Shown here: positions 2,874-32,321 of the stretch, in pieces
Layout: each line of letters opens with the position of its first letter
How positions within the stretch are numbered: the first letter of the stretch is position 1
Source: Octopus sinensis
Taxonomy: Eukaryota
Length of the DNA stretch: 33,480 nucleotides
Direction: 5' to 3'
Assembly: GCF_006345805.1 (NCBI RefSeq)
Contig: NW_021831944.1
Location: 1 to 33,480, forward strand
The notes under the pieces: generated by a model
Told to the model about the DNA's origin: nothing
Databases searched by the model: none
What the model saw: the letters and a program-made list of their open reading frames with translations, nothing else
Made by a program: the position numbers and the translations under genes

Positions 2874-3091
2874 AATATATATAGGGATGGTATTATTAAA
2901 ATATCATCACAAGTGGTAAGCCGTACAGGCAAATTAATAAAATATATACATACAATATTTATTCTGTACATACATATACAAGGGTACTACATGAGTACCT
3001 ATATCGCCAATGATAGAAGTCAATTTATATATATATATATTGGCGATTTTTTTCCTCTGTCTTCCCTTCTCTGGATCTTTCCTTCTCCTAT

Positions 3092-3127
3092 GTTTCCGAC
3101 GAAGAGCTCCGCTTGAAACGTAAAAAC
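3092..3127 (+). ncRNA. Minimal hammerhead ribozyme-like motif (U4C variant) in a TA-flanked element (~3041-3226)
   Basis: GUUU-CCGACGA-A-GAGC(UCC)GCUU-GAAA-C-GUA-AAAAC. Stem III is reduced to palindromic ACGU. The downstream ttcctgagcg..aatac is shared with the 24319 element. Confidence 0.55.
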
Positions 3128-3222
3128 CCTCCTTCATTCCTTCTTTCCTGAGCGTTCAATAATACTATATTTGTTCCACGTCCTCGCGTTGTTGTGTTTT
3201 TTGTGCTTTCTTGTTTGGATTA

Positions 3223-3283
<61 letters not shown>

Positions 3284-3493
3284 TATATATATAAGGTATC
3301 AAGTTAGAGGAGTTTAATACCCCTAAGGGATAATTAAATCCAGAGTCGCCACCCTTATCTCTGCTTCTTGCTTCTTTGTTACCTATTTTAAGACATCTTT
3401 CTAATTTTTTTATGCGTGTGTATATGCTGTGAATAAGTTGGTTTATGTGGATGTCCAGCAAATGATAGCTTATGTACATTTTTCATGTTGCAG

Positions 3494-3585
3494 GGATAAC
3501 ATTTTAGAATTAGCTGTTTATTACCGAGAATTAAGCTACGAAGAAATCAAGCACCAAATTGGCTACTATTTCTTTTCACTCCTCT
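3494..3585 (+). CDS. DEG/ENaC channel penultimate exon (beta-11/beta-12, pre-TM2)
   Basis: Acceptor ttgcag|G and donor T|GTAAGT. It encodes (R)DNILELAVYYRELSYEEIKHQIGYYFFSLL(C), which resembles ASIC [24 protein letters not shown]. Phases match both neighbouring exons. Confidence 0.9.
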
Positions 3586-3669
3586 GTAAGTTGTTCCTTT
3601 CTTTACTGAAAATTACAAACGACATCCCTCTGTCTTGAGGAAGGGGGTCATTTATGTTATTACATTCAA

Positions 3670-4050
3670 GGCGGCGAACTGGCAGAAACGTTAGCACACC
3701 GGGCGAAATGCTTAGCGGTATTTCGTCTGCCGTTATGTTCTGAGTTCAAATTCCGCCGAGGTCGACTTTGCCTTTCATCCTTTTGGGGTCGATTAAATAA
3801 GAACCAGTTACTCACTAGGGTCGATACAATCGACTTAATCCCTTTGTCCTCTCTGTGTTTAGCCCCTTGTGGGTAGTAAAGAAATAGGTATTTCGTCAGC
3901 CTTTATGTCCTGAGTCCAAATTCCACCAAGGTCGACTTTCCCTTTCATCTTTTCGGGGTTGATAAATTAAGTACCAGTTGTGTACTGAGGTTGATCTAAT
4001 CGACTACCCATCTCCCTAAAATTTCGAGCCTTGTGCCTAGAGTAGAAAAG
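3670..4050 (+). mobile_element. Two tandem tRNA-derived SINE copies with Nin-domain-like core
   Basis: ggcggcgaactggcagaaacgttagc...gagttcaaattccgccgaggtcgactttgcctttcatcc..gggtcgat; the core is repeated at ~3910-3975. Many related copies occur in the window. Confidence 0.8.
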
Positions 4051-4347
4051 AATACCATATATTACAGATCCTATAATTTAAATTTTAAAATTTTGAGGAA
4101 AAATTTCCTTTAAATGCATAGATTTTACAGTATTTCAGTTTGTATTTGAATATTTTTAACCCCTTCATTGTTATAAAAGTTTGAAAAATACTCCGCCTTT
4201 GTTCCAATTAATTTTCAAAATAATGAAGAATTTAGTAAATATATCTTTGCCCTTGTTAAATCGGTTCTTAGAACGTAAATTAAGAAGAAACTTTGATGGA
4301 AGGCTTTCATTCAGATCACTTTAATTCTTTGTTACAATATTTCTATT

Positions 4348-4733
4348 GGATGGAAGCACTCCGTCGGTTACGACGACGAGGGTTCCAGTTGATCCGAATC
4401 AACGGAACAGCCTGCTCGTGAAATTAACGTGTAAGTGGCTGAGCACTCCACAGACACGTGTACCCTCAACGTAGTTCTCGGGGATATTCAGCGTGACACA
4501 GAGAGTGACAAGGCCGGCCCCTTGAAATACAGGTACAACAGAAACAGGAAGAAAGAGTGAGAGAAAGTTGTGGTGAAAGAGTACAGCAGGGATCACCACC
4601 ATCCCCTGCCGGAGCCTCATGGAGCTTTAGGTGTTTTCGCTCAATAAACACCCACAACGCCCGGTCTGGGAATCGAAACCGCGATCCTACGACCGCGAGT
4701 CCGCTGCCCTAACCACTGGGCCATTGCGCCAAC
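4348..4733 (-). mobile_element. Full-length tRNA-derived SINE with 14-bp TSD
   Basis: The head is nearly identical to that of the 1876 copy (reverse complement). TSD acaatatttctatt at 4334-4347 and 4734-4747. Confidence 0.88.
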
Positions 4734-4749
4734 ACAATATTTCTATTAA

Positions 4750-5130
4750 CCCTTTCATTACCAGACTGGCTGAAATCGGCTCTGAGTACAAATGCCTTGT
4801 TTCCATAAGTTTTGAATTAAAATCTTCCACCAAACTTTAGTCACAATTTATGTTCCTAACACTAGCTGAATGATAACTAAGTTATTTTACTAAATTCTTT
4901 GTTATATTTAAAATTAATTGAAAGAAACACAGAGCATCTCAACAGAAATATGATAACAAATGTCTTGTTTTGATAAGTTTTGAATTAAAATCTCCCACCA
5001 AACCTTAGTCACAATATATGTTCCTAACACTAGCAGAATGATAACTAAGTTATTTCCTAAATTCTTTGTTATATTTAAAGTAATTGAAAGAAACACACAG
5101 CATCTCAAAATAAATATAATAACGAAAGGG
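4750..5130. mobile_element. piggyBac-like MITE with internal ~165-bp tandem duplication
   Basis: TTAA|ccctttcatta ... taacgaaaggg|TTAA. Internal direct repeats at ~4805-4960 and ~4974-5125. Confidence 0.75.
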
Positions 5131-5318
5131 TTAAAATATACTACTTTTGATTTGGTTAATTTTAAAAATAATGAAGAACTTAGTGGAATAATTTTGTCAC
5201 TATTAAGTTGGTATTTGGAACATAAATTAACATGGAATTTCACCAAATTAATCCTGGTAGCTATTAGATAAAATTTAATTATTTTCTAAAAATTAACCTC
5301 ATTTTTGTATAATTTCAG

Positions 5319-5440
5319 GTGACATTGGAGGATCTATGGGTCTTTTTCTTGGAGCTAGTGTTTTGACAATTTTCGAAATTGCTGAGTTTTTCTTTGGCCA
5401 GTCTTTGAGGGCTGCTTTCCAAGTCCATCGTTCAAGATAA
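5319..5440 (+). CDS. DEG/ENaC channel last coding exon (TM2, GAS selectivity filter, short C-tail)
   Basis: Acceptor tttcag|GT. It encodes (C)DIGGSMGLFLGASVLTIFEIAEFFFGQSLRAAFQVHRSR*, the DIGGxMGLFxGAS signature of DEG/ENaC/ASIC TM2. Stop TAA is at 5438-5440. Confidence 0.93.
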
Positions 5441-5447
5441 TTAAATG

Positions 5448-5484
<37 letters not shown>

Positions 5485-5613
5485 ATAATATATACATACA
5501 TACATACATATATGAATACATGCATACATGCATATATGTATATATATATACATGTGTATTTGCATGCATGTATACGTATGTATGTGAATATATATATATA
5601 TATATATATATAT

Positions 5614-6070
5614 TTAACAATTAAGGATAACTTCTTAATAAGGAATCTTAACAAGAAATTATCAGGTAGTTAGCGTGAAAAACCTCATAAGAGAAAAATT
5701 CGAAAATAATTTTTCACTTGAAAATATTAATTTATATTGTATAGAGGGTATTATTACACATAAATGCCTCACGCTAAGAGGGACATAAGTCATTACTACC
5801 AAAATTTAACTAATCATACCTAATGCAGTTTTCGAAGCAAGACATTTAAAAAACTGAATTTAGTTCTATATCACCTGTGATTTCACATTAACGCATCAAA
5901 TACGCATTTGATGCGTTAATTGTGAAATCACAGGTGATATAGAACTAAATTCAGTTTTTTAAATGTCTTGCTTCGAAAACTGCATTAGGTATGATTAGTT
6001 AAATTTTGGTAGTAATGACTTATGTCCCTCTTAGTGTGAGGCATTTATGTGTAATAATACCCTCTATACA

Positions 6071-6078
<8 letters not shown>
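5614..6078. mobile_element. TA-embedded asymmetric palindromic element (arms 5730-5901 / 5906-6078)
   Basis: ~172-bp near-perfect inverted arms with a 4-nt spacer. The left arm extends ~115 bp further, and (TA)n lies on both sides. Confidence 0.8.
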
Positions 6079-6119
<41 letters not shown>

Positions 6120-6149
6120 ATATATAAATATATACACATATATATACAC

Positions 6150-6196
<47 letters not shown>

Positions 6197-6687
6197 ATAT
6201 ATATAAATACAAGGATGTAAAGATATGTGTACTGATATACATTACATATCTGTGTGTATATGCGTGTATGTGTGTTTGTATACACACACACACACATACA
6301 CACACACACACACACATATATATACATACATATCTATGTATAAGATGAAGAGGAAAAATAAATGAATAAAAGCAGAGTGAAAAGGAAAAGGCAGAGGAGC
6401 AGGAGCAGGAGGAAGAGGAAGAGGAAGAGGAAGAGGAGTAAGAACTGGAATGAAGAATGAGGGAAGATAAAAATACGCCGTGCTATTTTTGATGAAGCAT
6501 GAGTGTATATAAAGTTGCTCCTGCATGGCCAGAAATTGGACGTAAAATGCCAAAAAAAATCAAACCAAAAACAAAAATCGACTTCAAACGAAGTTATCAA
6601 AGACTAAAACAATTTTGTGGTCAACATTTCTTGTTTATTGTTTTGAAATTTCTTGTGAAATGATTTTTTTTATACTGCTTCTGCTGT

Positions 6688-6689
6688 AG

Positions 6690-6734
<45 letters not shown>

Positions 6735-6790
6735 GTGTTGTTGTTGTTGTTGATGTTGTTGGTGTTGTATTTGTTACTGTTGTTTGTTGT
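6688..6790. repeat. (GTT)n microsatellite
   Basis: Direct reading. Confidence 0.9.
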
Positions 6791-6837
6791 TATGGCCCAG
6801 ATCATCTTTAATTGAGCAGGTCTATAATTAAAGGGTA

Positions 6838-7110
6838 AAGGCATGTGGTTTGGTGGTTTCAGAGTTGGACTCACAATTATGAAGCAGTGGGTTCGATTCT
6901 CACAACGGGCGTCACTTTATACCCTTGAGCAAGGTGCTTCATTTCACATTGCTTCAGCTGGAAATGAATACCAGTATCTGCAATGGTGGTTAACCCTGTG
7001 ATGGACTGGCGTCCTGTTCAGTAGGGAGGGCCATGAATCTTTTGCTCTCCATCTCTTAAATGCTACGAAACTGGGGTAAACTCTGGCCTAATGAACCTGT
7101 AGGTTTCAAA
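6838..7110 (+). mobile_element. Degenerate tRNA-derived CORE-like SINE
   Basis: gtggtttggtgg (A box), gggttcgattct (B box), ccttgagcaaggtgct. Confidence 0.55.
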
Positions 7111-7167
7111 CTTACTTTTAAATGATTAAATGCATTCCATACATGACCCTCTCACCTTGTTAAAGTA

Positions 7168-8144
7168 GGGGTGGGGCACAATGAGTAATATTTACTGCAT
7201 TTTAAACTTTGAGAAAAAGATATTTTTTACAAATATTCACTAGCTTTTACAAAACTAGATCAGCTAAACAAATGAGCTTCTCTGAATGCATTAAAAACTC
7301 TACAACATATTCAAAACACTATTTCAGAAAATTATTTCCATTTTCTTTGAGAATATAGAAGAAAAATTTAGCTGGGGTAAAATAAGGGTAAATTAGCTTC
7401 TTCAGTTCTCTAGAATTACATTTGGAAAAAGTCTTATACACATCAATATCCATCCTTGAAGATCAGAAAGATTAGAAATACAACAAAAATTTTAAATATC
7501 TAAATCAAGTGAAATAGGATCATTTTCATCTAGTTTCAGCTCACAAGGTGTGGCCATGCTGGGGCACCGCCATTAAAAAATGAGTCATCTTCAGTTGAAT
7601 TCGAACTCAGGTGGAAAAGGGGACAAAACTAACCAATAGAATAAGTACCAATAAAATAAGAATAGAAAAGGGGACAAACTTTCATGGATGTGAAATTAAT
7701 AAAACTCATCTAAATTTTGAAACTAAACATAAAATATTCCCTATAGCTTCTTCACAATCTGCTGGAGTGGTTCTCTTCCTGGCATGTTTATGCACCATAC
7801 AGTTAAAGAGAAGAAATTGTTGAAATAAGCTATGACTCATTTTGCTTTGCTGCAAACATTTTTTTTTCTTAATTTTCAAATTAGACATCAGTGTAGGAAG
7901 AGAACGACTTGAAATCCAATAGAGAAGAGAATTTTGATTGTTAAACACCAAAAATTATCCAGATATATTTATTAGCAACCTCAGTTACAATTGGGTCAGA
8001 TTTGAGGAAAAACAGTACCTATCAGCTGACTGCTTTGAACTCTCACAATAATGTTGACCAATTTTTACTTCGAAATAATTGCAATAATTTCAAACAAATA
8101 AAAGAAAAATTTTTTTAGATACTCATTTTGCCCCACTTTCCCCT
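7168..8144. mobile_element. Non-autonomous DNA transposon remnant with TIRs
   Basis: gtggggcacaatgagta (7171-7187) is inverted to tactcattttgccccac (8120-8136). A partial internal copy lies near 7832. No transposase ORF. Confidence 0.5.
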
Positions 8145-8667
8145 TGTTCTGTCACATTATCCACTGTATTTCCTTCCTTTCCAAACGACAGTGGAAGTGT
8201 ATAATTTCAGAGAGAGTTAACTGTTATTTCTAGGATGTCGAATGATCACGTGGAGGTTCCCTCTACGATGTTGTTGTTGTTGCTGTTGTTATTGTTGTTG
8301 TGTTTTTGTTCTTTTTGCTTTTTTAGTTTAAAACAAAATAAAAATTCTGAATAAAGAAACATAAAAAAAAAAACACGTTAAATAAATAATATAAACAAAT
8401 ATTTACAAAGATGTTCTTATCTCTAATCTTTTATTATTCGCTTATTTCAGTCATTGGATTGTGGCCATGCTGGGGTACTGCCTTGGAGTGCTTAGTTAAA
8501 CAAACGAAACTCAATTCTTATATATTTTAAAAGCTTGGTAGTTATTCTATTGGTTCATTTTACCGAACTGCTAAGTTACAAGAATGTAAACAAACCAACA
8601 CTGGTTGTCAAGCAGGTGGGGGTGGGGCAGCAATTGAAGCAAAGCCACACGTGTGCACACAAGCATA

Positions 8668-8874
8668 TACAAAGAGGTGCTGAAAAGGTCCTGGCTTTAG
8701 GTAAAAGAAATACAGGAGGATCAATTAATTCTGATTTTATTCAAGAGATTCCCTTCTCAGATTCACACACTTATTGCAGTGGTCCTTCAGTTTTTTGAAA
8801 CCCTTAAAATGAACTCAGAAAGTTGGACCTCCAACTGGGCCTTTCACAATATCCTTAAATCCAGGAACTTTTCA
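8668..8874. mobile_element. Mariner-like MITE
   Basis: TA then caaagaggtgctgaaaaggtcctggcttta, with inverted taaatccaggaacttttca at the right end (truncated). Confidence 0.55.
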
Positions 8875-8882
8875 TATATATA

Positions 8883-9562
8883 TCATCATCATCATCATCA
8901 TCATCATCATCGTTTAACGTCCGCTTTCCATGCTAGCATGGGTTGGACGGTTCAACTGGGGTCTGGGAAGCCCGAAGGCTGCACCAGGCCAGTCAGATCT
9001 GGCAGTGTTTCTACAGCTGGATGCCCTTCCTAACGCCAACCACTCCGTGAGTGTAGTGGGTGCTTTTTATGTGCCACCAACACAGGTGCCAGACAAGGCT
9101 GGCGAACGGCCACGCTCGGATGGTGTTTTTTACGTGCCACCAGCACGGAGGCCAGGCCAGGCTGGCATGGCCATGATCGGATGGTGTTTGTTACGTGCCA
9201 CCAGCATGGAGGCCAGTCGATGAGGTACTGGCTACGGCCACGTTCGGATGGTTTTCTTATGTACCACCGGCACTGGTACCACAAAACTACAAATTCCATT
9301 GATGTTCATCGATTTTGATTTGATTCTTTGATTTTTGATTTTTGATTTTCACTTGCCTCAACAGGTCTTCACAAGTAGAGTTATGTGTCCCAAGAAGGAA
9401 GGTATGCACAGGTGGACTGACTACGTCCCAGGTAGGGGCCATGGGTTATGCCCTCACTTGTCCTGCCGGGTCTTATCGCGCACAGCATACTTCCAAAGGT
9501 CTCGGTCTCTGGTCATTTCCTCAGTGAGACCTAAAGAGCGAAGGTCGTTCTTCACCACCTCA
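8883..9562 (-). mobile_element. RTE-type LINE-derived 3' element with (ATG)n tail
   Basis: (cat)n-cgtttaacgtccgctttccatgctagcatgggttggacgg...ggatgcccttcctaacgccaaccac, with internal gtgccacc subrepeats. Related copies at ~12913-13050, ~16200-16350, ~23438-23735, ~25765-26375, ~27780-27960 and ~30200-30440. Confidence 0.75.
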
Positions 9563-9565
9563 TCA

Positions 9566-9965: not shown

Positions 9966-10005
9966 GTGTAAATGCTTGTGACTCCTAACAGAAAGGAGGG
10001 AATGC

Positions 10006-10146
10006 ATATATATATACACACATATATATATATACACACACAATTATAATATATATAATATATACATATACATTACACATACATATATATATTATATATA
10101 ATATATATATATATATATATAATATATATATACATATATATAATAT

Positions 10147-13318: not shown

Positions 13319-13347
13319 TTGTAATAATGAAGCCAAACCAAACTGAA

Positions 13348-13444
13348 ATTTTGAAATCATTTAATATGTACATTTCAGGTTTATGTAACATAAAAGGAAA
13401 TGCATCCATTACATAAACCGTCCTCAGTTAAAGCATTTCAAAAT
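13348..13444 (-). ncRNA. Type I hammerhead ribozyme fold with intact core, in a TA-flanked element (~13318-13490)
   Basis: Minus strand: AUUUUGAAAU-GC-UUUAA-CUGAGGA-C-GGUUUAUGUAAU..GUUACAUAAACC-U-GAAA-UGUACA-UA^UUAAA-UG-AUUUCAAAAU. 12-bp stem II, palindromic stem III AUGUACAU, and stem I of 5+10 bp. The 10.1/11.1 pair is a C-U mismatch. Confidence 0.75.
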
Positions 13445-13933
13445 GTCATATTCTGGTATTGTGAGCCATTTCAAAGCATAACATGAAATATATATATATA
13501 TATATATATATATAGTCAAAAAATACACCAAAAGGTGCAACGCGTTACCAAAGGGTATGGGCCCACTGGGTCAGTTCTACACTCAACTCCCCCCCCCCCG
13601 ATGGGGTTAGACTGTCATCATAACACCAGACAGGCTGGAATACAGAGTCTGTGCACCACATGTAGAAAAGAAACAGAAAACGTAATTGCTATTAATGCTT
13701 TATATAATCCTTTCTACTATAGGCACAAGGCCTGAAATTTGTGGAGAGGAGGTAAGTTGATCAAACCAACCTCAGTACATGACTGGTACTGAATTCATCG
13801 ACCCCCAAAAGGATGAAAGGCGAAGTCAACCTTGGCAGAATTTGAACTCAGAATGTAAAAATGGGCAAACTACCACTAAGCATTTTGCCCAGCATGTTAA
13901 TGATTCTGCCAGTTCACTGCCTTAATACTTTAC

Positions 13934-14963: not shown

Positions 14964-15250
14964 TTGATAAAACGGTAAGATAACAAAAGAAAGAAAGAGA
15001 CCTCAATATTATGTAAATAGAGGAAATTTATCTATACAATATGTTACATTACTCGGTAGTCAAGATAAAACTCTGAGTTTCAGATGCCGAAGTGGAAATC
15101 CACAACACCATCTCTTCGGTTATCTGGCTATTTGATAACGTTTTCAAATAGCCAGATAACCGAAGAGATGGTGTTGTGGATTTCCACTTCGGCATCTGAA
15201 ACTCAGAGTTTTATCTTGACTACCGAGTAATGTAACATATTGTATAGATA
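14964..15250. mobile_element. TA-embedded asymmetric palindromic element (222-bp palindrome 15029-15250) carrying hammerhead-like motifs on both arms
   Basis: Arms 15029-15135 and 15144-15250 are reverse complements around taacgttt. The left arm extends ~65 bp further, with (TA)n on both sides. Confidence 0.85.
15154..15216 (+). ncRNA. Hammerhead-like motif (mirror copy at 15063-15125 on - strand)
   Basis: AGAUAA-CCGAAG-AGAUG..GUGG(AUUU)CCAC..CAUCU-GAAA-CUC-A-GAG-UU^UUAUCU. 6-bp stem I and near-palindromic stem III. The core has U4C and appears one A short. Confidence 0.6.
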
Positions 15251-15801
15251 TATATATACATATATTTATACATATATATATACATATATATACATACATA
15301 TACATACATATTATATATATATACATATATTACATATATATATATATATACATATATAATACATATATATAGATATATAGATATACATAGATATATATAT
15401 AAATATATATATACATATTTATAGATAATATATATAAATATATATATATATACACACTCACACATTTATGTATATATATATAAGCATGTGTATATATATA
15501 TATATATATAAACACACACACACATGCATTCACTTATACATCAGTGGTCTAGGAATTTATAGTAATCAACATTTGAAATTGTATCCAGTTCATTTGCACC
15601 AATCATGTTTGTCTGTAGAAATATCAGAACAAGAAAAAATAAATAAATAAATAAATAAATAAATAAAAGGGGCTTAAATGTTCCCCCAAATTATTTAGCA
15701 ATTTTGTAGTTACAAACTCCAAATTAATGTTTTTACACTGAAGGGGACAGGACCATCCTTTGTGAGAAATAATTGAGGAAAATGAATGAGTAACAGTGTA
15801 A

Positions 15802-16083
15802 GCCAAGCTAGTATGGTAGTCCATAAATATAAGACTAACGCTGCCGTTGATTAGCTCCAGCGACGCCTGCTGGGTCTGGCTACTCTGCATTGATAAAGGG
15901 CAAATACCCTGAAACATGTCTGCAGATGTCTGACCAGCAAGGGGAAGCGGCTGACCTCCCCTGTTTGAAGGTTATAATGGACACATGTTCGTGTGTCATA
16001 TAGCTAGCTAGAGGCAATGGCCTCTTAGAGCTAATCAACGGCAGCTTTAGTTTTATATTTATGGACTACCATACTAGCTTGGC
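15802..16083 (+). mobile_element. ~280-bp highly self-complementary element with 56-bp inverted ends enclosing a hammerhead
   Basis: 15802-15857 is inverted to 16028-16083 with 2 mismatches. Internal hairpins: ggggaag..ctcccc, gacacatg-tt-cgtgtgtc and agaggc-aatg-gcctct. Confidence 0.8.
15884..15926 (+). ncRNA. Type I hammerhead ribozyme, U3-A8 compensatory core variant
   Basis: UCUGCA-UUGAUAA-AGGG(CAAAUA)CCCU-GAAA-C-AU-GUC^UGCAGA. All stems are fully paired with a GUC cleavage triplet and palindromic ACAUGU stem III. Stem I can extend via UGCUGG/CCAGCA. Confidence 0.8.
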
Positions 16084-16922
16084 GATAACTATTAATATCC
16101 AGTACCGCTGCCGTACTCTCCTTTAGAGAGACTTAGAAATTTTAATATTTCTATTAGTGTAAGCATGGCCATGTGGTTAAGAAGCTCACTTTGCATAGAT
16201 CTGGCATGGATTGGACAGCTTGACAGGAGCTGACCAGCTGAAGAGCTGTCTGGGCTCCAGTTTTCTCTTTTGGCATGGGTTTTAAGGTTGGATGCCCTTC
16301 CGAATGCCAACCACTTCACAGAAAGTAGTGGATGCTTTTTACATGGCACCAGTAAATTGAAAAGGGTCTCTCTCTCTCTCTCTAAAAAACAGAAAATTAA
16401 TTACAAGGAACTTCGTTAACAATGAAAAGCAAAATTAACAAAAAAAATTTCAATGTAAGTAGATTGGTTACCATTGGTTACCATTGGTTTATTAAAATTT
16501 GTTGTGTTTTCAATAATTAATAATATAAAGGTTAAGATATAACAAAAAATTGCTTTGTATTAAATTAAATCAACAAAAATGAGAAAAATCTATAAAAATA
16601 TGTCTAAGAATATCTTCCAGGTATATATATAAATATTTATACATATCACTATATAAATGCAATTGTATGTGGTTGTGCATGTCTGTTTAGCCTTGAAAGG
16701 TTCTGAAATGGTGTTTCCTTGAGAAAAATGAATTTGATTTATGAAATCTGTGTCTCAAAGAGAAGGTCATCCATAAATAATAATCAAAAGTCATAATTTG
16801 CTATGAGAAATAACTTTTAGATCAATAACTCTTCCGCTCATTCTCTGTCACCATTATCTGTATCAATCATTTAGAATATATACATACATGCATACATACA
16901 TACATACGTGTGTGTGTGTGTG

Positions 16923-18357: not shown

Positions 18358-18543
18358 AATAATGGTTTCAAATTTTGGCACAAGGCCAGCAATTTCGTGG
18401 GTGGGGGTAAGTAGATTACATTGAACTCACAACTCAACAGGTATTTGATAAAATAAGTACCCATTGAGTTCTGGAGTCAATGTAATCAGCTTACCCTCAC
18501 ACCCAAAATTGCTGGCCTTGTGCCAAAATTTGAATCCATTATT
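18358..18543. repeat. Imperfect foldback formed from two SINE 3' tails
   Basis: aataatggtttcaaattttggcacaaggccagcaattt is inverted to aaattgctggccttgtgccaaaatttgaatccattatt. The tails match those of the Nin-like SINEs (gccttgtgcc). Confidence 0.7.
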
Positions 18544-19392: not shown

Positions 19393-19716
19393 CTAATCAG
19401 CTCTCTCATGGTGAAACACACCCTTCGGTTCCGGCTTTGCGACATACATCTTCCTCACACTGTTATTCATCATGAAGTCGACGGAATGATCAATGGGTTT
19501 CACAATGAAAGGGATACAACCAAGACCAACAAAAGTCGTGGTCCACCGACGAACACCGACCGGTAACGAAGCTGTCTTCTTCAGCAGGTAATTAGTACCG
19601 GCACATAATCGATTGATAGTAAATCCAGGAATTGCTACAGATGCCAGCCCTTGCCAAACAACTGTGTCTGCCATGGCTATCATGCGGTTCTTCGTAACAT
19701 TTGATTCGTCAGATTT
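19393..19716 (-). CDS. MTFP1: MTFP1/MTP18 last coding exon
   Basis: Acceptor ttttcag|AAA, phase 0. It encodes KSDESNVTKNRMIAMADTVVWQGLASVAIPGFTINRLC...RRWTTTFVGLGCIPFIVKPIDHSVDFMMNNSVRKMY...*, containing the MTP18 motifs WQxLASVAIPGFTINR and IPxIxxPIDxSVD. Confidence 0.96.
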   Translation of the reverse strand, partial: KSDESNVTKNRMIAMADTVVWQGLASVAIPGFTINRLCAGTNYLLKKTASLPVGVRRWTTTFVGLGCIPFIVKPIDHSVDFMMNNSVRKMYVAKPEPKGVFHHERAD

Positions 19717-19951
19717 CTGAAAATTAAATCAAAATTATTATAATCAAAAACATAATATGGATATCAGATTAATTACAAGATACAATTTAAGATAACTAGA
19801 CTATTATATTCTATTAGTCCACAATTTTTGTACAGATTTCTGAAAATTAAATCAAAATTATTATAATCAAAAGCTTGATATGGATATCAAATTAATTACA
19901 AGAGTAAAGAGAGAGAGAGTATATACACATACATGCATACATATATTACAT

Positions 19952-20065: not shown

Positions 20066-20121
20066 TATGTATATATACATCCATCACCTTTCTCATTCTT
20101 TTAGTTTATTTAAAAAAGTTT

Positions 20122-20162
20122 TTTTGTCTGATGAAGAATTAGCATCTGAAACATCAACAAGA
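20122..20162 (+). ncRNA. Degenerate minimal hammerhead-like motif next to (TA)n in the MTFP1 intron
   Basis: UUUUGU-CUGAUGA-AGA(AUUAGCA)UCU-GAAA-C-AUC-AACAAGA. The core is perfect, but stem III (ACGU would need G at 20153) and the stem I register are damaged. Confidence 0.45.
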
Positions 20163-22109
20163 TTCTTTACCTTGTTTTTAACCCCTTGCAGACGGATTTA
20201 GTACTGACAGTCTGTGCTGTGTCCTGGTATTTGGCCGTTCAGTAACAACATAATTTTTCATACAAGGAATTTTACAGAGTACTTACAGATTCTTCTCAGT
20301 GTGGCATATTTGAAAATACCGGTGCCGCACAGAGAGAGACATAGCACTGTTCACACACCATCAGTACTGCTTCTCGTCTGCATTTGGGCTAAGTGTTAAA
20401 CATATAAAACATTTGTTAAAACTTATCAGCTAATGACGAGAGTGGGAAAACCAGTTGTTAGTTAATAAAACTTATTTTGAATGAACGCTAAGGGGCTGTG
20501 GAAAAAATTTCCTTCGAAATAGGGGTCCCATTGCGCTTACAACAAGTTGCCGTGTACGTTTGTAATTCTGATATATGCTTTGACGAGGGTTTTGTAGTTA
20601 AACATTATACACCTATAATCCATGGCTGTGGCCTTCTTTCTATCGAATATAAAATACGACAGATTGCTTCTAACGATCGACCGAAATTCTTATATTTTGT
20701 AGTCCCGAACATGAATACATTAAGCGGAGAATGCAAATAAATATTCCTTAGCAAATAACTGCATAACTGGAACAAGGGAAATAACTCAAGAATTAAAACT
20801 CTTCAAGGGAAGCAACTAGGCAAGACCTGGGTTGTTAAATTATTTATTTATTTTTTATTGCCCACAAGGGGCTAAACATAGAGGGGACAAACAGGGACAG
20901 ACAAACAGATTAAGTCGATTACATCAACTCCAGTGCGTAACTGGTACTCAATTTATCGACCTCGATGTGTGTATGTGCGTGATTCAGTCATATGACCCCA
21001 GCCATGCTGGAGCACCGCCTTGAACGGTTTTAGATGAAAAAATTGACCCACCAGGGCTTATTTCTTAAGCCTAGTACTTATACTATCAGACTCTTTTGCC
21101 AAACTGCTAAGCTACAGGAACATAAACACACCAACACCGGTTGTCAAGTGGTAAAAGGGGTACAAACACAGACACAAAAACGCACACACATATATATATA
21201 TATACGATGGGCTTCTTTCAGTTTCCGTCAACCAAATCCATTCACAAGGTTTTGGTCAGCCTGGTGCTATAGTAAAAGACACCTGACCAAAGTGCCATGC
21301 AGTGGCACTGAACCCGGAACCATGTGGTGGAGAAGCTCTGCGTGTGTGTGTGTGTGTGTGTATACATGTATATGTATATATATGTTTTTGTGCATGTTTG
21401 TGTGTGTGTGTTTATATATATATATCTTTATATATATGTGTGTGTACACATATATATATACATACATCTATACATATACATACATAAAAATACATACACA
21501 CACTCACATACACAAACACACACACACACATGGAGGAAATTGGCTGCATGAGTCCATAGGAAGGAAATGCTATCCTTTATTTATATATATATATATAAAT
21601 TAGAAAAAAACACCTTTTATCAATTTGAAATTAACAATTAAATTACACCATCCAGAAAATTACATATAACAGGAAAATTAAAATAACAATAAAATGTAAA
21701 GATTAAGTAAATTGCAAAACTAATAATAAAAACGTATATAATATATATATACATAGAGAGAGAGGTGGGTAAAGGGCAGGAGAGGGACATAAAGCAGAGA
21801 ATGAGAGGAATAAGGATAGGTGAGGGGTGACAGTGGCCGGCATGAAATGCTGTTCAATAACAGTAAGGGATAATATCAAGAAAGCCATGTGCGTAATATG
21901 AGGTGGGTCCAGGGAAGGAGGAACTGGGAGTACAAAAGTGTAAGGGGGATGGAATATGTGTATCCCTGCTCTCATATAGTTATTCTAATTGCAGCAGCTG
22001 AGGTAGTAATGTAGTTAGGAGAGTGATGGAGTGATGAGTGATGGAAACTGCTTTCAAACGTGTGTTGCACATCCACTGAAAAACTTTATTATTATTTACT
22101 ACTACTATA

Positions 22110-23769: not shown

Positions 23770-24206
23770 ATTAGGGAATAAATCCAAACTTACAGGGAAA
23801 AATCAGATTTAGGATTGAATCCAATTTTATAGTAAAATATTATATTATATTAAATTAGAGACAAAACCACTATTAGGCAAATCAAACACTGAAAAACTTA
23901 AGCCAATACATATGATTAATTTATATTATTTAAATATATAACAAAATTATTAAAAAAATATAATTAATATCACACTACGATCGTTTCATGCCTGCTAACA
24001 TCTTCAAATTTTTGAGTCGCAGTCATTCATCAGGTGGTTTAAATATCTAAAATATAATCAATATAATCGTAGTGTGATATTAATTATATTTTTTTAATAA
24101 TTTTGTTATATATTTAAATAATATAAATTAATCATATGTATTGGCTTAAGTTTTTCATTGTTTGATATGCCTAATAGTGGTTTTGTCTCTAATTTAATAT
24201 AATATA
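23770..24206. mobile_element. TA-embedded element with ~140-bp inverted arms (23841-23981 / 24066-24206) and a hammerhead at the inversion point
   Basis: The arms are reverse complements with few mismatches. The left arm extends ~70 bp further, and (TA)n flanks the element. Confidence 0.82.
23973..24036 (-). ncRNA. Type I hammerhead ribozyme with fully canonical core
   Basis: Minus strand: CAC-CUGAUGA-AUGACUGC..UCAAA(AA)UUUGA..GCAGGCAU-GAAA-C-GAUC-GUA^GUG. Palindromic stem III ACGAUCGU. Predicted cleavage is between 23976 and 23975. Confidence 0.78.
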
Positions 24207-24318
24207 TATATATATATATATAACGGGAAGGATTATGAAAATAAACAAAGGACGAAGGCAGGTGGAGTACAAACAAACAATGTATTAGTATGGCGCTCAG
24301 GAATAGAAATAAAACAAG

Positions 24319-24356
24319 TCTTTTACGTTTCGAGCCTATGCTCTTTGACAGAAAGA
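24319..24356 (-). ncRNA. Degenerate minimal hammerhead in a TA-flanked element (~24222-24390)
   Basis: Minus strand: UCUUU-CUGUCAA-A-GAGC(AUAG)GCUC-GAAA-C-GUA^AAAGA. The stems are perfect but the core has A6U and G8A, so this copy is probably inactive. Confidence 0.55.
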
Positions 24357-24397
24357 TACACAGAAAAGAAACAAGGAGAGAAACAAGTGCATATATG

Positions 24398-24442
<45 letters not shown>

Positions 24443-24823
24443 AAATAAATATATAAAACATATGCACATATACATACATATATGTACATACCAACATCTA
24501 TATTTATATACACATGCATATATGGGTACAGGATATCAAAAAAACGTTGAACACAATGAGAAACGAAAACATAAAAACAAAGACATGGAAACGGACTTTT
24601 TTTCAAACAACGAAAAAACAGAGTACAAAACATACAACACAAGGAATATTCCCCTTCTTCAGTTGCCCTTGTTTCAGCTACTCTGCGTTTTGAAGGTATA
24701 TATATATATATATATGCACATATATGTCTGTATGAATATACACAAAGAGCCTAAAAACTTTAGCCTCAGGTGTGGAAAAACAGAAGTGACCAAAATTCAG
24801 TTAAAATAAAGAATTGTTCTTAC

Positions 24824-24951
24824 TTTAGCGGCGATTTGTCCCTTGTGGTTAGCATCAGCCATGACGTAGCTACAAGCTACGACATAGCTGAAACGGACAG
24901 CGTTCACATGGACCAAAGCTCGGAATGCCTCACCAACTTCGTTTGCATAAC
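24824..24951 (-). CDS. MTFP1: MTFP1/MTP18 exon 2
   Basis: Acceptor ttttcag|GT and donor AAA|GTAAGA; 128 nt. It encodes (G)YANEVGEAFRALVHVNAVRFSYVVACSYVMADANHKGQIAAK, the MTP18 family motif GYANEVGEAFR. Confidence 0.95.
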
Positions 24952-25002
24952 CTGAAAATCATTAACAAGAGAAGAAAAGATATTATAAAAAAATGTAGTA
25001 AT

Positions 25003-25420: not shown

Positions 25421-25764
25421 TGTCTTGTGTGTGTGTGTGTGCGCGCATATGTATGTGAGTGTATGCATCATTATATTGATACCATGGTTGTAAACGAGCA
25501 TCATTGTTATACAAGTGGGGGTTGTTCATTTCCAGTCTTCTGTTAAAAATATGGGGAAATATAACCATGCTTGGGAAAAGCAAGGGTTAATGACTAGACG
25601 GACTAAACACTTCTGAGCATTTTGTCTGGCATACTAACAAGTCTGCGAGTTTACCACCTCACTAATTGAACTAATTAATTAAGTGGTTGAGTAAAGTGCA
25701 AGCCGGGAGAGTCACTGGCATGCTGGGCAACATGCTTAGTAGCATTTCATTCATCTTCCCATCC

Positions 25765-26375
25765 TCACTGAGGCAATGACCAGCGACTGAGACCTTTGGA
25801 AATATGCTGTGCGTGAGAAGACCAGGCAGGACAAGTGAGTCCAGCCCACTTATGCATGTCTTTCCTCCCTTGGACACACAAAGACCTGTTGAGGCAAGCA
25901 AAGTCGAAATTGAACCTCATCCGACGACAGGCACCCATGCCAACCCCGCTTCTCTGCTTGCGAAGACCTGCTGGGGCAAGTGAAATCGAAATCGGAATCG
26001 AAATTGAACCAATCCTATGACTGGCACCCGGCAGTTGCCAGGACCCCTGGACTGGTGGTACGTAAAAAGCGCTATCCGAATCGTGGCCGATGCCAGCGTC
26101 GCCTCAACTGGCTGCCATGCCGGTGGCACATAAAATGCACCAATCCGATCGTGGCCGTTGCCAGCCTCGCCTGGCACCTGCGCAGGTGGCACGTAAAAAG
26201 CACCCACTACACTCAAGGAGTGGTTGGCATTAGGAAGGGCATCCAGCAGTAGAAACACTGCCAGATCAGACTGGAGCCTGGTGCAGCGTTCTGGCTTCCC
26301 AGATCCCCGGTCGAACCGTCCAACCCATGCTAGCATGTAGAATGGACGTTAAACGATGATGATGATAATGATGAT
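25765..26375 (+). mobile_element. RTE-type LINE-derived element with (GAT)n tail
   Basis: Reverse-complement homolog of 8883-9562, ending ggacgttaaacgatgatgatg. Confidence 0.75.
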
Positions 26376-26592
26376 CGTGAGTTCAAATTCTGTTGAGGTT
26401 GACTTAGCCTTTCATCCTTTCGGAGTTGATAAAGTAAGTACCAGTTGAACACTGGGATTGATGCAATCAACTAGCCCCACTCCTCACAAAAGTTCATGAG
26501 GCTGGTTTCTCAGATTCTGTGGTATATGAAGGGTGGACCAAAAGTCATGTACTAAGTTCAATAAAATAATGATGAATACAAATTTGTATATG

Positions 26593-27017
26593 AATAATGA
26601 TAATAATAATAATAATAATAAGTCTTGGTATAAAAGATGGGCTACAGCAAATATTCTGCTCAATACCACAGATTTGCTTGTCAGTTGTTTGACCTTAACC
26701 AGTTGAGCATGTCCCTTAGTGGCTGACGATATGTGCATCTCTGATCACGAGCAGAAGTAGTGGGGGAGCATCATAGCCATGTGTTGAGAGGGATTCTTTG
26801 GGGTTTGAACAGTTCACCTCTGGAAACATGGGTGGTTCTTTCAACATCCTTAAACAACCCTTATTCAGGGACCGTTTGAGCGGGATGGGTTACTCAACCT
26901 GAAGAAAATTCTAACTGGGCCCCACCTGCAAGGTCATGTGCTGTTTATCTTGATATGAGATCACCATGTCGCGCACATATGGTTGTGATGCATGTGCCTG
27001 GTGTACCTTTATCAGGT
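26593..27017 (-). mobile_element. Probable retroposon with (TTA)n tail
   Basis: A complex, more GC-rich ~400-bp block abutting an (AAT)n tract. It is a single copy in the window and the family is not established. Confidence 0.35.
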
Positions 27018-27092
27018 ATGCTATGTAACATAACATAAATGGAAAGTGAAATGTTTTGGTGCACAAATTTTGGCCCACCCTGTGCACCCCTC

Positions 27093-27170
27093 TGATGTTG
27101 GTGAACTTCCCCTTTGGTTGATTGATGACAGTGAACTTTCCCTGCAGTGAATTGATGATGGTGAACTTAC
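27093..27170. repeat. ~30-bp degenerate tandem repeat x3
   Basis: tgatgttggtgaacttccc / tgatgacagtgaactttccc / tgatgatggtgaacttac. Confidence 0.7.
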
Positions 27171-27389
27171 TGGACATGACATCAAATGGCTATGGGGGTC
27201 AACCAGAAGGAAATAGAAAACAAAGGGGTCCATAGATAAAAAAAAAAAGATTTGAGAATCACTGCTCTGTAGTAAGAGACCTGTTCCTGTCCTTCAGCCA
27301 CTCAACATCTGGCTCAGAGCCACCTCTCTCAATACTGCACTCCTACCCTAACAAGAGGGTTTCGTGTTGCAATTTATTTAAATACCTCA

Positions 27390-27750
27390 CTAATACTAAT
27401 GACTGAGACAGCATTCACCTGGGGTGGGTTGAGCTGGCTTCATTCATCCTCAATGCTGCATCTCTCACAAATGCCGACCAGGCCTGGCGATTTGAGGCTA
27501 ATGACCGCATGATCTCCAACCACTCCTTATTCCAGCAGTGAACGCCATAGACATGGGGGCCTAGCTTGGGTTGCAGATCAGCCTTGACTGTCATCAGCCA
27601 GGTTTTTCGTTGTCCACCACATCGCTTTCACCAACCCTTTCGCCATGTGTGGAAAATCTACGGCAAACAAGACGTTCTCCCAACAGGGATATACTTGCGG
27701 TTGGGGACCACTAGCGAAATTCCTATTCCCAAGATCCTTCAAACCTTCCT
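27390..27750 (-). mobile_element. RTE-clade LINE 3' fragment (ORF C-terminus, decayed upstream)
   Basis: Minus strand 27618-27415 encodes GGQRKTWLMTVKADLQPKLGPHVYGVHCWNKEWLEIMRSLASNRQAWSAFVRDAALRMNEASSTHPR*. This has RTE-like 'GGQxKTW...LAxxRxxW' motifs, followed by a short repeat tail. Confidence 0.7.
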
Positions 27751-27964
27751 CATGTACATTTCACTAATACTAATGCCATGGTAAATAAAATAAAAAAGCA
27801 CCCTGTGCCCTCTGGAAAGTGGTTGGTGTTAGGAGAGAGCATCCAGCTATAGAAACCATGCCAAAGTAGACAATGGACATCAATACAGTCATTGGAGCTT
27901 GTCCAACATTCTAACCTGTGCCAGCATGGAAGACAGGTGTTCAATGATGACGATGATGTGATGT

Positions 27965-27999
<35 letters not shown>

Positions 28000-28256
28000 A
28001 TGCCCTGGAAAGATGAAAGGTAAGTCGACCTTGGCGAAACATGAACTCAGAATGTTAAGAAATGTCAACTATTTCTTTACAAACATATTTTGTCTGTCAC
28101 TCTACTGCCCCAGCTGTAGCAACATATCATCTGTTGCTTCCGTTTCATTTAGAGATTTCTCCTTCTGCATTTTCTTCCCCCCCCCCACCTGCTTCTTCAT
28201 TCACTCTCTTTCAACTTTCATTCTGCTACTCTCTCTCCCTCTTTCTCTTTTCCTCT

Positions 28257-28318
<62 letters not shown>

Positions 28319-28884
28319 ACATTCTCTTTTTGTGTTTCTCTTGCCCTTTTCCCCTCTCTCACTCACCTTTGTCTTATATCTACTTCTTCTCTCCCTCTCC
28401 CTCTCTTCCTCCTACTCTCTCTATAACCTTTATACAAATGCATAACAAAGGGAAGAGAGGGAGAGAGGCAGAGACAGAGAACGTGAGAGAGAGAGAGAAT
28501 GAGTGAGAGAGAAAGAGAGAGAAAATCAGTGCATGAAATCAGAAGGAAGCCAAATATAATAAGCAGAGAAAATAAGAGAAAAAGAAGAAAACCATAGAAG
28601 AGGAGATAGAGAGAGAGAGGAGAGAGAGAGAGGAGGAGGAGGAGGACATAGTGAAAGAAAGGTACAAGAGAGAGTGAGAAAACAAAAATGAGAAATAGTA
28701 AGAGACAGAGAAAGGAAAAGAGAGCTTAAGATACAAGGGAGAAAAACAAAAACAAGAGAGACAGAAGATAGCAAGGTGGGGGTAAGGAGTATGAAGACTG
28801 TACACACATACATGCATGCAACACACACACACACACACACACACATAGGTAAGTGTACACAGAAAATAGACAGAGAGGATAGAC

Positions 28885-28945
<61 letters not shown>

Positions 28946-28947
28946 TG

Positions 28948-28981
<34 letters not shown>

Positions 28982-28983
28982 TG

Positions 28984-29035
<52 letters not shown>
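28885..29035. repeat. (GATA)n microsatellite within a CT/GA-rich low-complexity region (~28200-29230)
   Basis: Direct reading. Confidence 0.95.
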
Positions 29036-29474
29036 CAGGGAGAGACAGAGACAGAGATAGATAGAGAAAATAGATGCATATACATAGAAGATATATATAA
29101 ATATATATACAAATATATATATATATATATAAATATATGTATATAATACACACACATGATAGAGACACACCAAGAAAATTGATAAATAAGCAGAGATAGA
29201 TAGATAGATAGATAGACAAACAGATAGCTACATAAGTAGATAAAGAAAGAGAGAAGGAGAAAAACAGGTGAGGTAAGATTTGACTTCACCTTTCTATATT
29301 AAATGTCATAAATTCATATACAAAAGCAGAAATAGAACACAGCATGATGATTTATGGGGACGGAAAGGGGGAAAGGAGAGAGGGAGAGAGAGAGAGAGAA
29401 AAGACCTATTATTTATAAATAGTAAGGACATAGAGATCAACAATAATGCTGTTGTGATCTTTATAGATACATAC

Positions 29475-29524
<50 letters not shown>

Positions 29525-29929
29525 ATATATGTATGTATGTATATATATATATATATTAAATATATATTATGCATTGATATAAGTTATTCAATAAAGCCCG
29601 AAACATATGTACCGTAGAATCCTTTGTATCCTGTTTTTCATTTATTTCATTTGATACATATATCCTATCACCTATACCACTAGCTGGCATATACAGGTGC
29701 TTACAGTTATCAAGTATTTACCCTGAATTTTTTGTACCTATATATAATATATATATATACATTACATATATAATCATCATCATTGTTTAACATCCACCTA
29801 CTGTGTGTGTGTGTGTGTTTGTATGTAGTATTTATATATGCATGTATGTGTGTGTAGACAAGTAATAAAGGTTGTATGAAGCTATGATAAATATATTAGA
29901 GGTGGTGTATCTTTCTGTTTCTGAGCACT

Positions 29930-30200
29930 GAAGGGTATTCAGCTGACAATCGTAAGGCTGTGAGTTCAATTCCCAGTGGAGTGGTGAGATGTGTCCTTGA
30001 GCAAGACACTTTATTTTCGCATTGCTCCCGTCAACTCAGCTGGCAAAAATGAGTAGTACCTGGAATTCAAAGGGCCAGCCTTATCACACTCTGTGTCATG
30101 CTGAACCTCCCTGAGAACTATGTTAAAGGTTCGCTTGTTTGTGGAATACCCAGCCACTGGCACATTTATTTCATGTTCTGCTGGTCAAATCAATTGGAAC
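29930..30200 (+). mobile_element. Degenerate tRNA-derived SINE (CORE-like head, same tail as the 4348 SINE)
   Basis: gagttcaattccc, gtgtccttgagcaagacact, then aagggccagccttatcacactctgtgtcatgctgaacctccctgagaactatgtt. Confidence 0.65.
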
Positions 30201-30950
30201 ATTAGGAAGATGCTCTTCCTACTGCCAAACACTCCAAGAGTGTAACGGATGCTTTTATGTGCCACTGGCACGGGTGCCATTTGCATGACACTGATATCTG
30301 CCACAACTGCGATTTTTCTCAGCTTCATGGGTCTTCTTCTCAAGTACAACATTATGCCAAAGATCTTGGTCATTGCCTCTGTGAGGCCCAACACTCGAAA
30401 GGACCTCAGCCACCTTGCCTCTGTGAGGCCTGCTTGAAAATAACTCAGCCACTTTGCCTCCATATATACACACATCAGGTTTCCACACAGTTTCCATCTA
30501 CCAAATCCACTCACAAGACACTTGTTGGCTCAGGGGCTGCAACAGAAGACACTTACTTAAGGTGCCGTGCAGTGGAATTGAACCCAAAACCACGTGGTTG
30601 CGAAACAAGCTTCTAAGCCACACAGTCATGCCTTGTATTTTAGAAGGTAGGATATGATTTGGTGGAGGTTTCTAGCAATTTGAGCAACCACATGGCAGTT
30701 CTCCAATTAAGCTGTTTAACCCTAGGCAACCTGACCAAGCAAACAGCAATCGTTCAGTATTGGTAAGCAACATCATTCACCTACACACTCTTCCCTCAAA
30801 AGCACAGATAAAAAGATTAGGCTGAAAAAGAGGGTGAATGTTGTCGTCTCTTCATATTCACACTGAATACCAATACCGAAGGATCGCCACCAAATCTATG
30901 ATTAAAAGCGTTTCAACTCTGAGTATTCTACTTTTAGTATATGTAGATCA

Positions 30951-31121
30951 TTGGTACTACTTAAGAAGAGTGGTCCCGGTGCGCGCACTCGTGACTAGTC
31001 GATCCTACAACGACTACCTAGCAAAGTAAATAAAACACAAAAACACAAAGTAAGGATCGACTAGTCACGACTAGCTAGCGCGAGTGCGCGCACGGGGACC
31101 ACTCTTCTTAAGTAGTACCAA
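30951..31121. mobile_element. Short GC-rich foldback/MITE-like element
   Basis: 30951-31006 is inverted to 31053-31121, with a ~12-nt insertion in the right arm and an A-rich spacer. Confidence 0.7.
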
Positions 31122-31265
31122 GATAATTTCCTTGCTGGTTTTTTTTTTTTTTGTACAGATGGTAAAGTGTGATTTGAGGGAGATTTGACTGCTATTTCTA
31201 GCAGGTCGAAAGACCATACAGTGATTCTTGTTAGCTCGTAGTTCTGTTAAGAGTAAGAGACAGAG

Positions 31266-31301
<36 letters not shown>

Positions 31302-32234
31302 TTGGTATGTACTATGTTAGTGTGTATCTGTGTATTTTATATAATAAACGTTTGTTTGTGTGTGCATCAAAAAGAGGGAGAGATGTGTGGATATTTATGT
31401 TTGTTGGTTGTGTATATGTGTGTATTAATTGCTGCGCATGTGTGCAACAGAAAGAAACAGGTATTGTGTAGAGATGTCACTATGTACGTTGTATATATGT
31501 GTGTAGGCGTGTGTATGTGTGAAAGAGAGAGAGAGAGAGAGAGGGACAGACAAATCGACAGGTTATGAATGCTATTTGATTGTATGTACGTTTATTTACT
31601 CTGTGTGCGAGAGAGAAAAACAGCGTGTCTTGTATTTACTTATGATTTGTGAACAAAAACAAAAAAAAGGGGGAAACACAAATTATTACAATAGACAGCA
31701 ACTAAAGAACAGTATTAAAAAAAAGTAAACCAGTAAAAAAATAACATAATGAAGCATGTATAATCCCTCAATTATTCAGTGATCTGTTCGGCCTCTAAAA
31801 AATCTTTCTTCGTATGACCCTCTTTCTCTCTCTCTCTCTCTCTGCGAAGAATGAAACTAAACAGTAGATCGCATTCAGATCTTGTGTATATCAAATGATG
31901 AGGATACTTATCTCTTTCTGGATGAAGTAATTTTTTGTTGACCCCTTCAATAAAAGTACATCACACACACACATTAAATCAGTGAAGGAAGAGTGTTATT
32001 CAGAAAACGAACGTCTCGTTCAATAGGTTGCAACTCTGCTAAAAGTACCTAAAAAGGGTGGTGCCTGTCAAGCCGGGTAACGTTTCATTTCTACACAACT
32101 TAAGACAGGTTTTGGCAATTATTAGTCCAGGCCATAGCTAACTAAATAGCGCACCACCTGGAGATGTCATGTATTAGGACATCGCACATACATACATACA
32201 TACATACTTTATTTAAAGCAGCAGAAAATTCAAC

Positions 32235-32281
32235 AAAACCTGTTACTCTGAGTTTCACGTTCCCGTTCGTCGGACAGTTTT
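32235..32281 (-). ncRNA. Compact type I hammerhead (U4C variant) between TACA and TA repeats
   Basis: Minus strand: AAAA-CUGU-CCGACGA-ACG(GGAA)CGU-GAAA-CUC-A-GAG-UA^ACAG-G-UUUU. GNRA-capped stem II, and the same stem III (ACUCAGAGU) as the 15154 motif. Confidence 0.68.
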
Positions 32282-32321
32282 AGATATATATATATATAGA
32301 TATATATATATATACATACAC

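What the first reader, a model, noticed from the sequence alone, without database searches (positions are those of the whole stretch)
3041..32285. Dense, sequence-diverse population of hammerhead-ribozyme mini-elements targeting (TA)n microsatellites
Seen: at least 7 loci fit the type I hammerhead layout stem I-CUGANGA-stem II-GAAA-stem III-NUH: 3092(+), 13348(-), 15154(+)/15063(-), 15884(+), 23973(-), 24319(-) and 32235(-), plus a damaged one at 20122. Their stems differ in sequence but keep pairing, most lie in 70-450-bp non-coding islands between TA tracts, and none has an ORF. Established: minimal type I hammerheads with short palindromic stem III mark the pLTRs of Penelope-like elements and retrozymes, and some PLE clades insert into microsatellites. 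Inference: this genome hosts many families of non-autonomous ribozyme-bearing retroelements, about one per 4 kb here. That could make them a major and probably unannotated genome component. The class is known, but I cannot tell whether these families have been described.
Basis: partly seen in the sequence, partly recalled or inferred. Interest (0 to 1): 0.85.

Follow-up and report, generated by a model that had tools for sequence, protein, structure and literature searches.

The report
Octopus Penelope ends with variant hammerheads
These octopus DNA repeats really carry small hammerhead-shaped RNA motifs and are likely the leftover tail ends of a known kind of jumping gene (Penelope-like elements); the notable points are their density and one very abundant family with an altered core letter whose ability to cut RNA is untested.

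Summary
The motifs are real. An intact-core descriptor finds 4 loci against 0.06 per shuffle. Six of the 8 listed loci were recovered by descriptor, a seventh by hand, and 20128 is broken. I found one more half-motif at 29600. The host is an Octopus species. Five of 8 loci have (TA)n on both sides (background 5-6%). The layout matches the published minimal hammerheads of Penelope-like element (PLE) ends. Three loci are head-to-head inverted pairs, two with a one-sided tail. The 24033 family loses depth from its 3' end towards its 5' end, the pattern of 5'-truncated PLE insertions. No tandem retrozyme units and no RT or GIY-YIG frame lie in the window, so no autonomous partner is shown, and 'non-autonomous families' is unproven. 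New here: only 3 of 8 cores are canonical. The 24351 family (roughly 10^4-10^5 copies) has U at the conserved A6, keeps G8 at 92-99% and varies freely at N7. My searches found no report of that variant or of octopus hammerheads. Cleavage is untested. The scan noted the same class before on other DNA (e1-7882047).

The parts
3041..3226 (+). 186-bp island between (TA)n tracts; hammerhead C3 3096, core CCGACGA (U4C), extra A, helix II 4 bp, helix III ACGU, triplet GUA, helix I 3 bp; lies between the large ORF at 391-1350 and the ASC-family exon at 5321
   Evidence: homologous along its length to 24223-24390 (z 10.6)
13320..13487 (-). 168-bp island between (TA)n tracts; hammerhead C3 13427, canonical core CUGAGGA, C.U mismatch at base of a 13-bp helix II, palindromic helix III AUGUACAU, triplet AUA, helix I 5 bp plus distal extension
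   Evidence: z -3.3
14965..15243 (.). Head-to-head inverted pair (arms 15026-15139 and 15140-15253, 2 differences in 114); one hammerhead per arm (C3 15119 on -, 15160 on +), core CCGAAGA (U4C), helix I 6 bp, helix III ACUCAGAGU, helix II off by one base; about 60-nt tail on the left arm only
15802..16083 (+). Element with a 56-bp inverted copy of its own 3' end in front; hammerhead C3 15890, core UUGAUAA (U3-A8), helix I 6 bp, helix II 4 bp, helix III ACAUGU, triplet GUC; not TA-flanked
20078..20165 (+). Damaged hammerhead, C3 20128, canonical core CUGAUGA, helix III broken; TA tract upstream only; right boundary not defined; antisense in an MTFP1 intron
23772..24206 (-). Head-to-head inverted pair (arms 23841-23981 and 24066-24206, 2 differences in 141); long arm carries hammerhead C3 24033, canonical core CUGAUGA, helix III ACGAUCGU, triplet GUA, helix I 3 bp; short arm starts inside helix III; about 70-nt tail on the long arm; hammerhead is sense to MTFP1
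24223..24390 (-). 168-bp island between (TA)n tracts; hammerhead C3 24351; this copy reads CUGUCAA, the family reads CUGUNGA (A6U); extra A, helix II 4 bp, helix III ACGU, triplet GUA, helix I 5 bp; sense to MTFP1
29568..29738 (+).
   Evidence: read from sequence; no fold support (z +1.4)
32208..32283 (-). 76-bp island; hammerhead C3 32273, core CCGACGA (U4C), helix II 3 bp, helix III ACUCAGAGU (same as 15160), triplet GUA, helix I 4 bp plus extension; only 10 nt of 5' lead; TA tract upstream, (TATG)n downstream
5611..6084 (.). TA-flanked inverted pair with a one-sided tail of about 110 nt but no hammerhead found; same insertion anatomy, different family
19396..19719 (-). Host MTFP1 last coding exon (context)
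24824..24958 (-). Host MTFP1 internal exon (context)
5321..5440 (+). Host DEG/ENaC (ASC family) last exon (context)

Best explanation
The islands are multi-copy octopus repeats carrying minimal type I hammerhead motifs, and are likely the 3' ends (pseudo-LTR tails) of several Penelope-like retroelement families, inferred to have been copied into (TA)n tracts by a Penelope reverse transcriptase-endonuclease that stopped early. Shown: the motifs, the TA bias, high copy number for two families, head-to-head pairs whose 3' ends point outwards, and short arms that stop at an internal TA-like patch. Inferred steps: (1) a GIY-YIG endonuclease nicks a (TA)n tract and the RT primes at the RNA 3' end; (2) copying stops after about 75-300 nt, usually 10-60 nt beyond the hammerhead core; (3) in some events the new DNA folds back on a short palindrome or microhomology and is copied back, giving the inverted arm, which joins the other target end at an internal TA-like patch and so lacks the 60-110-nt tail; (4) the hammerhead is predicted to cut only as a dimer through its palindromic helix III, in tandem precursors, so single intronic copies would be largely inert. 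The clade is most likely Neptune-like (TA bias plus hammerhead), which is untested. Whether some families (3096/24351) now spread as short non-autonomous units is open.
For: Layout matches the published metazoan PLE consensus (U-rich lead, CUGANGAH, helix II, GAAA, palindrome, NUH). 3096 and 24351 have the same layout as the Acropora Neptune row; the A-U-closed motifs resemble the Marsupenaeus row, an element called Neptune-like. U3-A8 cores, opposite-strand pairs and many divergent families of single motifs per genome are described for truncated PLEs. Inverted 5'-truncated copies, a one-sided tail and microsatellite bias are described PLE traits. In the window, 3 of 8 loci are head-to-head pairs; in 3 of 3 TA-flanked pairs (one without a hammerhead) the short arm ends at an internal TA-like patch. 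Independently, 44 contigs in X2 and 5 in X10 run from place 23841 straight into (TA)n. Depth for the 24033 family falls from 1.0-2.7e6 at the 3' end to 6-9e4 at the core and 2e4 upstream in X1, with the same trend in X2 and X9. Eleven listed skip joints link the two arms at other breakpoints (short sides, weak). Helix III is self-complementary in 7 of 7 intact loci.
Against: No RT or GIY-YIG frame among 150 frames scanned (149 of the 170 complexity-filtered stop-free frames of 55 aa or more, plus one exon), and no genome was held, so no autonomous partner is shown. All 8 loci start within 10-60 nt of the core, and 3096 and 24351 are collinear almost end to end, which suggests fixed-length units rather than random truncation. 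For the 24351 family, depth peaks at the hammerhead rather than at the 3' end. The depth decline in the 24033 family could partly reflect subfamily divergence or AT-rich mis-laying at 80% likeness. The one-sided tails (60-110 nt) are longer than the published 30-40 bp. 15890 is not TA-flanked.
Confidence: 0.7

Rival explanations
1. Fixed-length non-autonomous PLE derivatives (SINE-like units of 170-290 nt, the first reader's view) that are transcribed on their own and borrow a PLE enzyme. Most plausible for the 3096/24351 group and compatible with the best explanation for other families.
For: 5' leads are all 10-60 nt; 3096 and 24351 align almost end to end; the 24351 family is very abundant and its depth peaks at the hammerhead; solo retrozyme monomers derived from PLE pLTRs are described in vertebrates.
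Against: Leads vary six-fold and trails from about 35 to 200 nt; the 24033 family shows a 3'-to-5' decline and varied breakpoints; no internal promoter was tested or seen; my laid stretch ended at 24390, so the family's 5' limit was not measured.
Confidence: 0.22
2. Classical non-LTR retrozymes: tandem hammerhead repeats that yield circular RNAs and reinsert by rolling-circle reverse transcription.
For: Unit sizes of 170-290 nt and low GC overlap the published range, and a mollusc (mussel) has such elements.
Against: No head-to-tail units in the window; longest lead-to-tail direct repeat is 4-8 nt in 7 islands (the eighth value was a self-match); the motifs are of the minimal PLE type, not the canonical retrozyme type. 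Caveat: the TA tract was masked, so units joined through (TA)n could not be seen.
Confidence: 0.05
3. Chance look-alikes in AT-rich repeats, or motifs kept for a host regulatory role in introns.
For: Single motifs fold no better than shuffles in most cases; loose descriptors give chance hits; Rfam finds none.
Against: 4-5 loci against 0.06 per shuffle; family-level conservation of core and helices with free N7 and loop II; a G-C to C-G swap in helix I between 3096 and 24351; arms differ by only 1.4-3.6%, so these are young insertions rather than conserved host elements.
Confidence: 0.03

Closest known systems
Minimal hammerheads (min-HHRs) of metazoan Penelope-like elements (Cervera and De la Pena 2014, PMC4209133)
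   Same: Type I layout, short palindromic helix III, U-rich lead, extra base after A9 with G-C closure (3096, 24351), U3-A8 variant (15890), opposite-strand pairs, many divergent families, mostly single motifs.
   Different: None of the 56 representative rows has A6U or U4C, and no cephalopod is included. Published counts are 2,000-9,000 per genome; one family here is estimated at 10^4-10^5.
Endonuclease-positive PLEs of the Neptune clade and the Neptune-like MjPLE01
   Same: Hammerhead present; microsatellite bias attributed to Neptune; inverted truncated copies with a one-sided tail; A-U closure without an extra base as in the Marsupenaeus row.
   Different: No ORF is linked here, so clade is not established; tails are 60-110 nt rather than 30-40 bp.
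Naiad PLEs (Craig et al. 2021, PMC8557442)
   Same: (TA)n targeting, inverted insertions with tail, present in Octopus.
   Different: Naiads lack canonical hammerheads and are old remnants in cephalopods; these arms are 96-99% identical and carry hammerheads.
Non-LTR retrozymes of animals (PMC7229834; bioRxiv 10.64898/2026.07.22.740005)
   Same: Short, non-coding, low GC, type I hammerhead, probable PLE origin.
   Different: Retrozymes are head-to-tail tandems, mostly with canonical hammerheads and circular RNAs; none of that is seen here.
Natural hammerhead core variants (Perreault et al. 2011, PMC3088659)
   Same: U3-A8 and U4C are known and active or tolerated; a change at position 6 (A6C) occurs in a phage.
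   Different: A6C is a single slow ribozyme (below 0.1 per min); A6U was not seen in the passages read, and here it is the majority state of a very large family.

Membership tests
Metazoan PLE min-HHR | Type I order: helix I, core, helix II, GAAA, helix III, NUH, helix I | tested here: met
   7 of 8 listed loci; 20128 broken
Metazoan PLE min-HHR | Short self-complementary helix III for dimer pairing | tested here: met
   ACGU x2, ACAUGU, AUGUACAU, ACGAUCGU, ACUCAGAGU x2
Metazoan PLE min-HHR | Core CUGANGA or the U3-A8 variant | tested here: not met
   Met in 4 of 8 loci. Three have U4C (single copies only, family state not tested) and the 24351 family has A6U; these four are variants of the published consensus.
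Metazoan PLE min-HHR | Extra base after A9 and G10.1-C11.1 closure (over 80% of published families) | tested here: inconclusive
   Met by 24351 and, as G-U, by 3096; three loci close with A-U and no extra base, a minority type also in the published alignment; 13427 and 15160 are irregular
Metazoan PLE min-HHR | Occurs as multi-copy consensus families | tested here: met
Metazoan PLE min-HHR | Self-cleavage as a dimer | not testable with these tools
   Needs a bench assay; only contigs, no raw reads, were served
Endonuclease-positive PLE (Penelope/Poseidon, Neptune, Nematis, Hydra) | RT plus C-terminal GIY-YIG ORF upstream of the hammerhead-bearing pLTR | tested here: not met
   No such frame in the window; expected for 5'-truncated copies, but it leaves membership of a named clade unproven; no genome was held to look elsewhere
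Endonuclease-positive PLE (Penelope/Poseidon, Neptune, Nematis, Hydra) | 5'-truncated copies with an adjacent inverted copy | tested here: met
   3 of 8 loci; depth decline and alternative joints for the 24033 family
Endonuclease-positive PLE (Penelope/Poseidon, Neptune, Nematis, Hydra) | One-sided tail of 30-40 bp | tested here: inconclusive
   A one-sided tail is present in 2 of 3 hammerhead pairs but is 60-70 nt long
Endonuclease-positive PLE (Penelope/Poseidon, Neptune, Nematis, Hydra) | Microsatellite insertion bias (Neptune) | tested here: met
   5 of 8 loci with TA on both sides vs 5-6% background; CA/TG tracts near only 2 of 8 vs 28% background
Non-LTR retrozyme | Two or more head-to-tail units each with a hammerhead | tested here: not met
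   None in the window; not tested genome-wide
Non-LTR retrozyme | Circular RNA of unit length | not testable with these tools
   No raw RNA reads were served
Naiad PLE | Absence of canonical hammerhead | tested here: not met
   Hammerheads are present; the hammerhead-less pair at 5611-6084 is a separate candidate, untested

The most novel reading that the evidence does not exclude
Octopus genomes hold the densest hammerhead population yet described, of order 10^5-10^6 motifs, dominated by non-standard cores that current descriptors miss. The most abundant family has carried U instead of the conserved A6 through its diversification and is still a working, dimer-dependent ribozyme (or an RNA signal recognised by the PLE enzyme). 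Short inverted arms that begin just behind the predicted cut site would be genomic fossils of cleavage in vivo.
Probability: 0.25. Interest if true: 0.65.

Novelty: new variant of a known kind. Interest (0 to 1): 0.42.

Why it matters
The class is known and the anatomy is ordinary for Penelope-like elements, so this is not a new system. Two things would matter. First, abundance: hammerhead islands cover about 5% of this window (1,770 of 33,480 bp) and one family alone has tens of thousands of copies, far above the published counts of PLE-type minimal motifs for other animals that I read. Second, the A6U core: position 6 is treated as near-invariant, yet it is changed across a huge family that keeps G8. 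Testing that family would show either that the core tolerates A6U in a dimer, or that PLE hammerheads can be preserved for something other than cutting. What hammerheads do for PLEs is an open question in the papers read.

Tried and rejected
Own genome: none held, so no genome-wide count, clustering or partner search. Rfam: no hammerhead hit; the mir-9 hit at 15104-15175 is the perfect palindrome of the inverted pair, not a microRNA. Pattern scans for more copies: 0 in viral contigs and 0 in prokaryote genomes; 1 in the metagenome collection (L001), a eukaryote-looking contig with the same layout and U at position 6, single copy, no TA flank and no long ORF, so only a hint. Four further matches (L002-L005) lack a proper core and were rejected as chance. 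A MAFFT alignment of nine motifs was not structural, so I built no covariance model and ran no formal covariation count. A hairpin at about 24870-24900 lies in an MTFP1 exon and is not a hammerhead. The 14727 hit and three relaxed hits were treated as chance. No RNA holder was listed; X10 is only guessed to be RNA, so nothing is said about expression. Summed contig depth is not a copy number by the tool's own note; I use it only for order of magnitude. Junction clustering: 9 of 11 listed skip joints start 5-23 nt behind the predicted cut (nominal p 4e-4), but sides are 20-35 nt, the region is AT-rich, mirror ambiguity applies, the window's short arm limits what can be mapped and 3 joints were not shown; kept as a lead only. 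ARAGORN found no tRNA gene. MTFP1 exon 1 was not found in the window. The 2017 RNA Biology paper on dimeric PLE hammerhead variants is not held. Earlier-finding look-ups by sequence and place were empty.


Full report
Setting. No genome is held for this window. The MTFP1 last exon (19396-19719, minus strand) is 97% identical to Octopus bimaculoides and 90% to Argonauta, so the host is an Octopus species. A second MTFP1 exon lies at 24824-24958 and an ASC-family (DEG/ENaC) last exon at 5321-5440. Loci 20128, 24033 and 24351 sit in the MTFP1 intron, the last two in sense. The rest is AT-rich intron or intergenic DNA full of microsatellites.

Noticed in passing
window 5611-6084: TA-flanked inverted pair with a 110-nt one-sided tail and no hammerhead; the tail ends in a stable hairpin (z -3.5) preceded by a CUGAUAA-like word but no GAAA. 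Possibly a hammerhead-less PLE end.
   Followed up: partly
window 24500-24696: TA-flanked island whose minus strand has GAAAC nine bases before CUGAAGA, the reverse of the hammerhead order; no fold support.
   Followed up: partly
window 21598-21735 and 16400-16620: Further AT-rich islands next to TA tracts with no hammerhead found.
   Followed up: no
window 23841-23859 and 24281-24313: Two contigs join a piece of the 24351 family to the 3' end of the 24033 family through a short TA-like spacer (table 5c), suggesting nested insertion of one family into the other.
   Followed up: no
window 30951-31121: Element with 41-bp terminal inverted repeats and a GC-rich interior, MITE-like.
   Followed up: no
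window 18358-18543: Inverted pair, 84% complementary, of an abundant repeat.
   Followed up: no
window 391-1350: 320-aa open frame with no Pfam hit, upstream of the ASC-family last exon; probably a large divergent exon of the same channel gene.
   Followed up: partly
window 1875-2260 and 4350-4730: Inverted copies of a repeat with a tRNA-like head by eye, probably a SINE; ARAGORN called no tRNA.
   Followed up: no
L001 2456-2502 (-): A eukaryote-looking contig in the metagenome collection carries a minimal hammerhead of the same layout with U at position 6; single copy, so A6U may occur outside octopus or may be decay.
   Followed up: partly
window 15104-15175: Rfam mir-9 hit above gathering score on both strands is an artefact of the perfect palindrome at the centre of the inverted pair.
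   Followed up: yes
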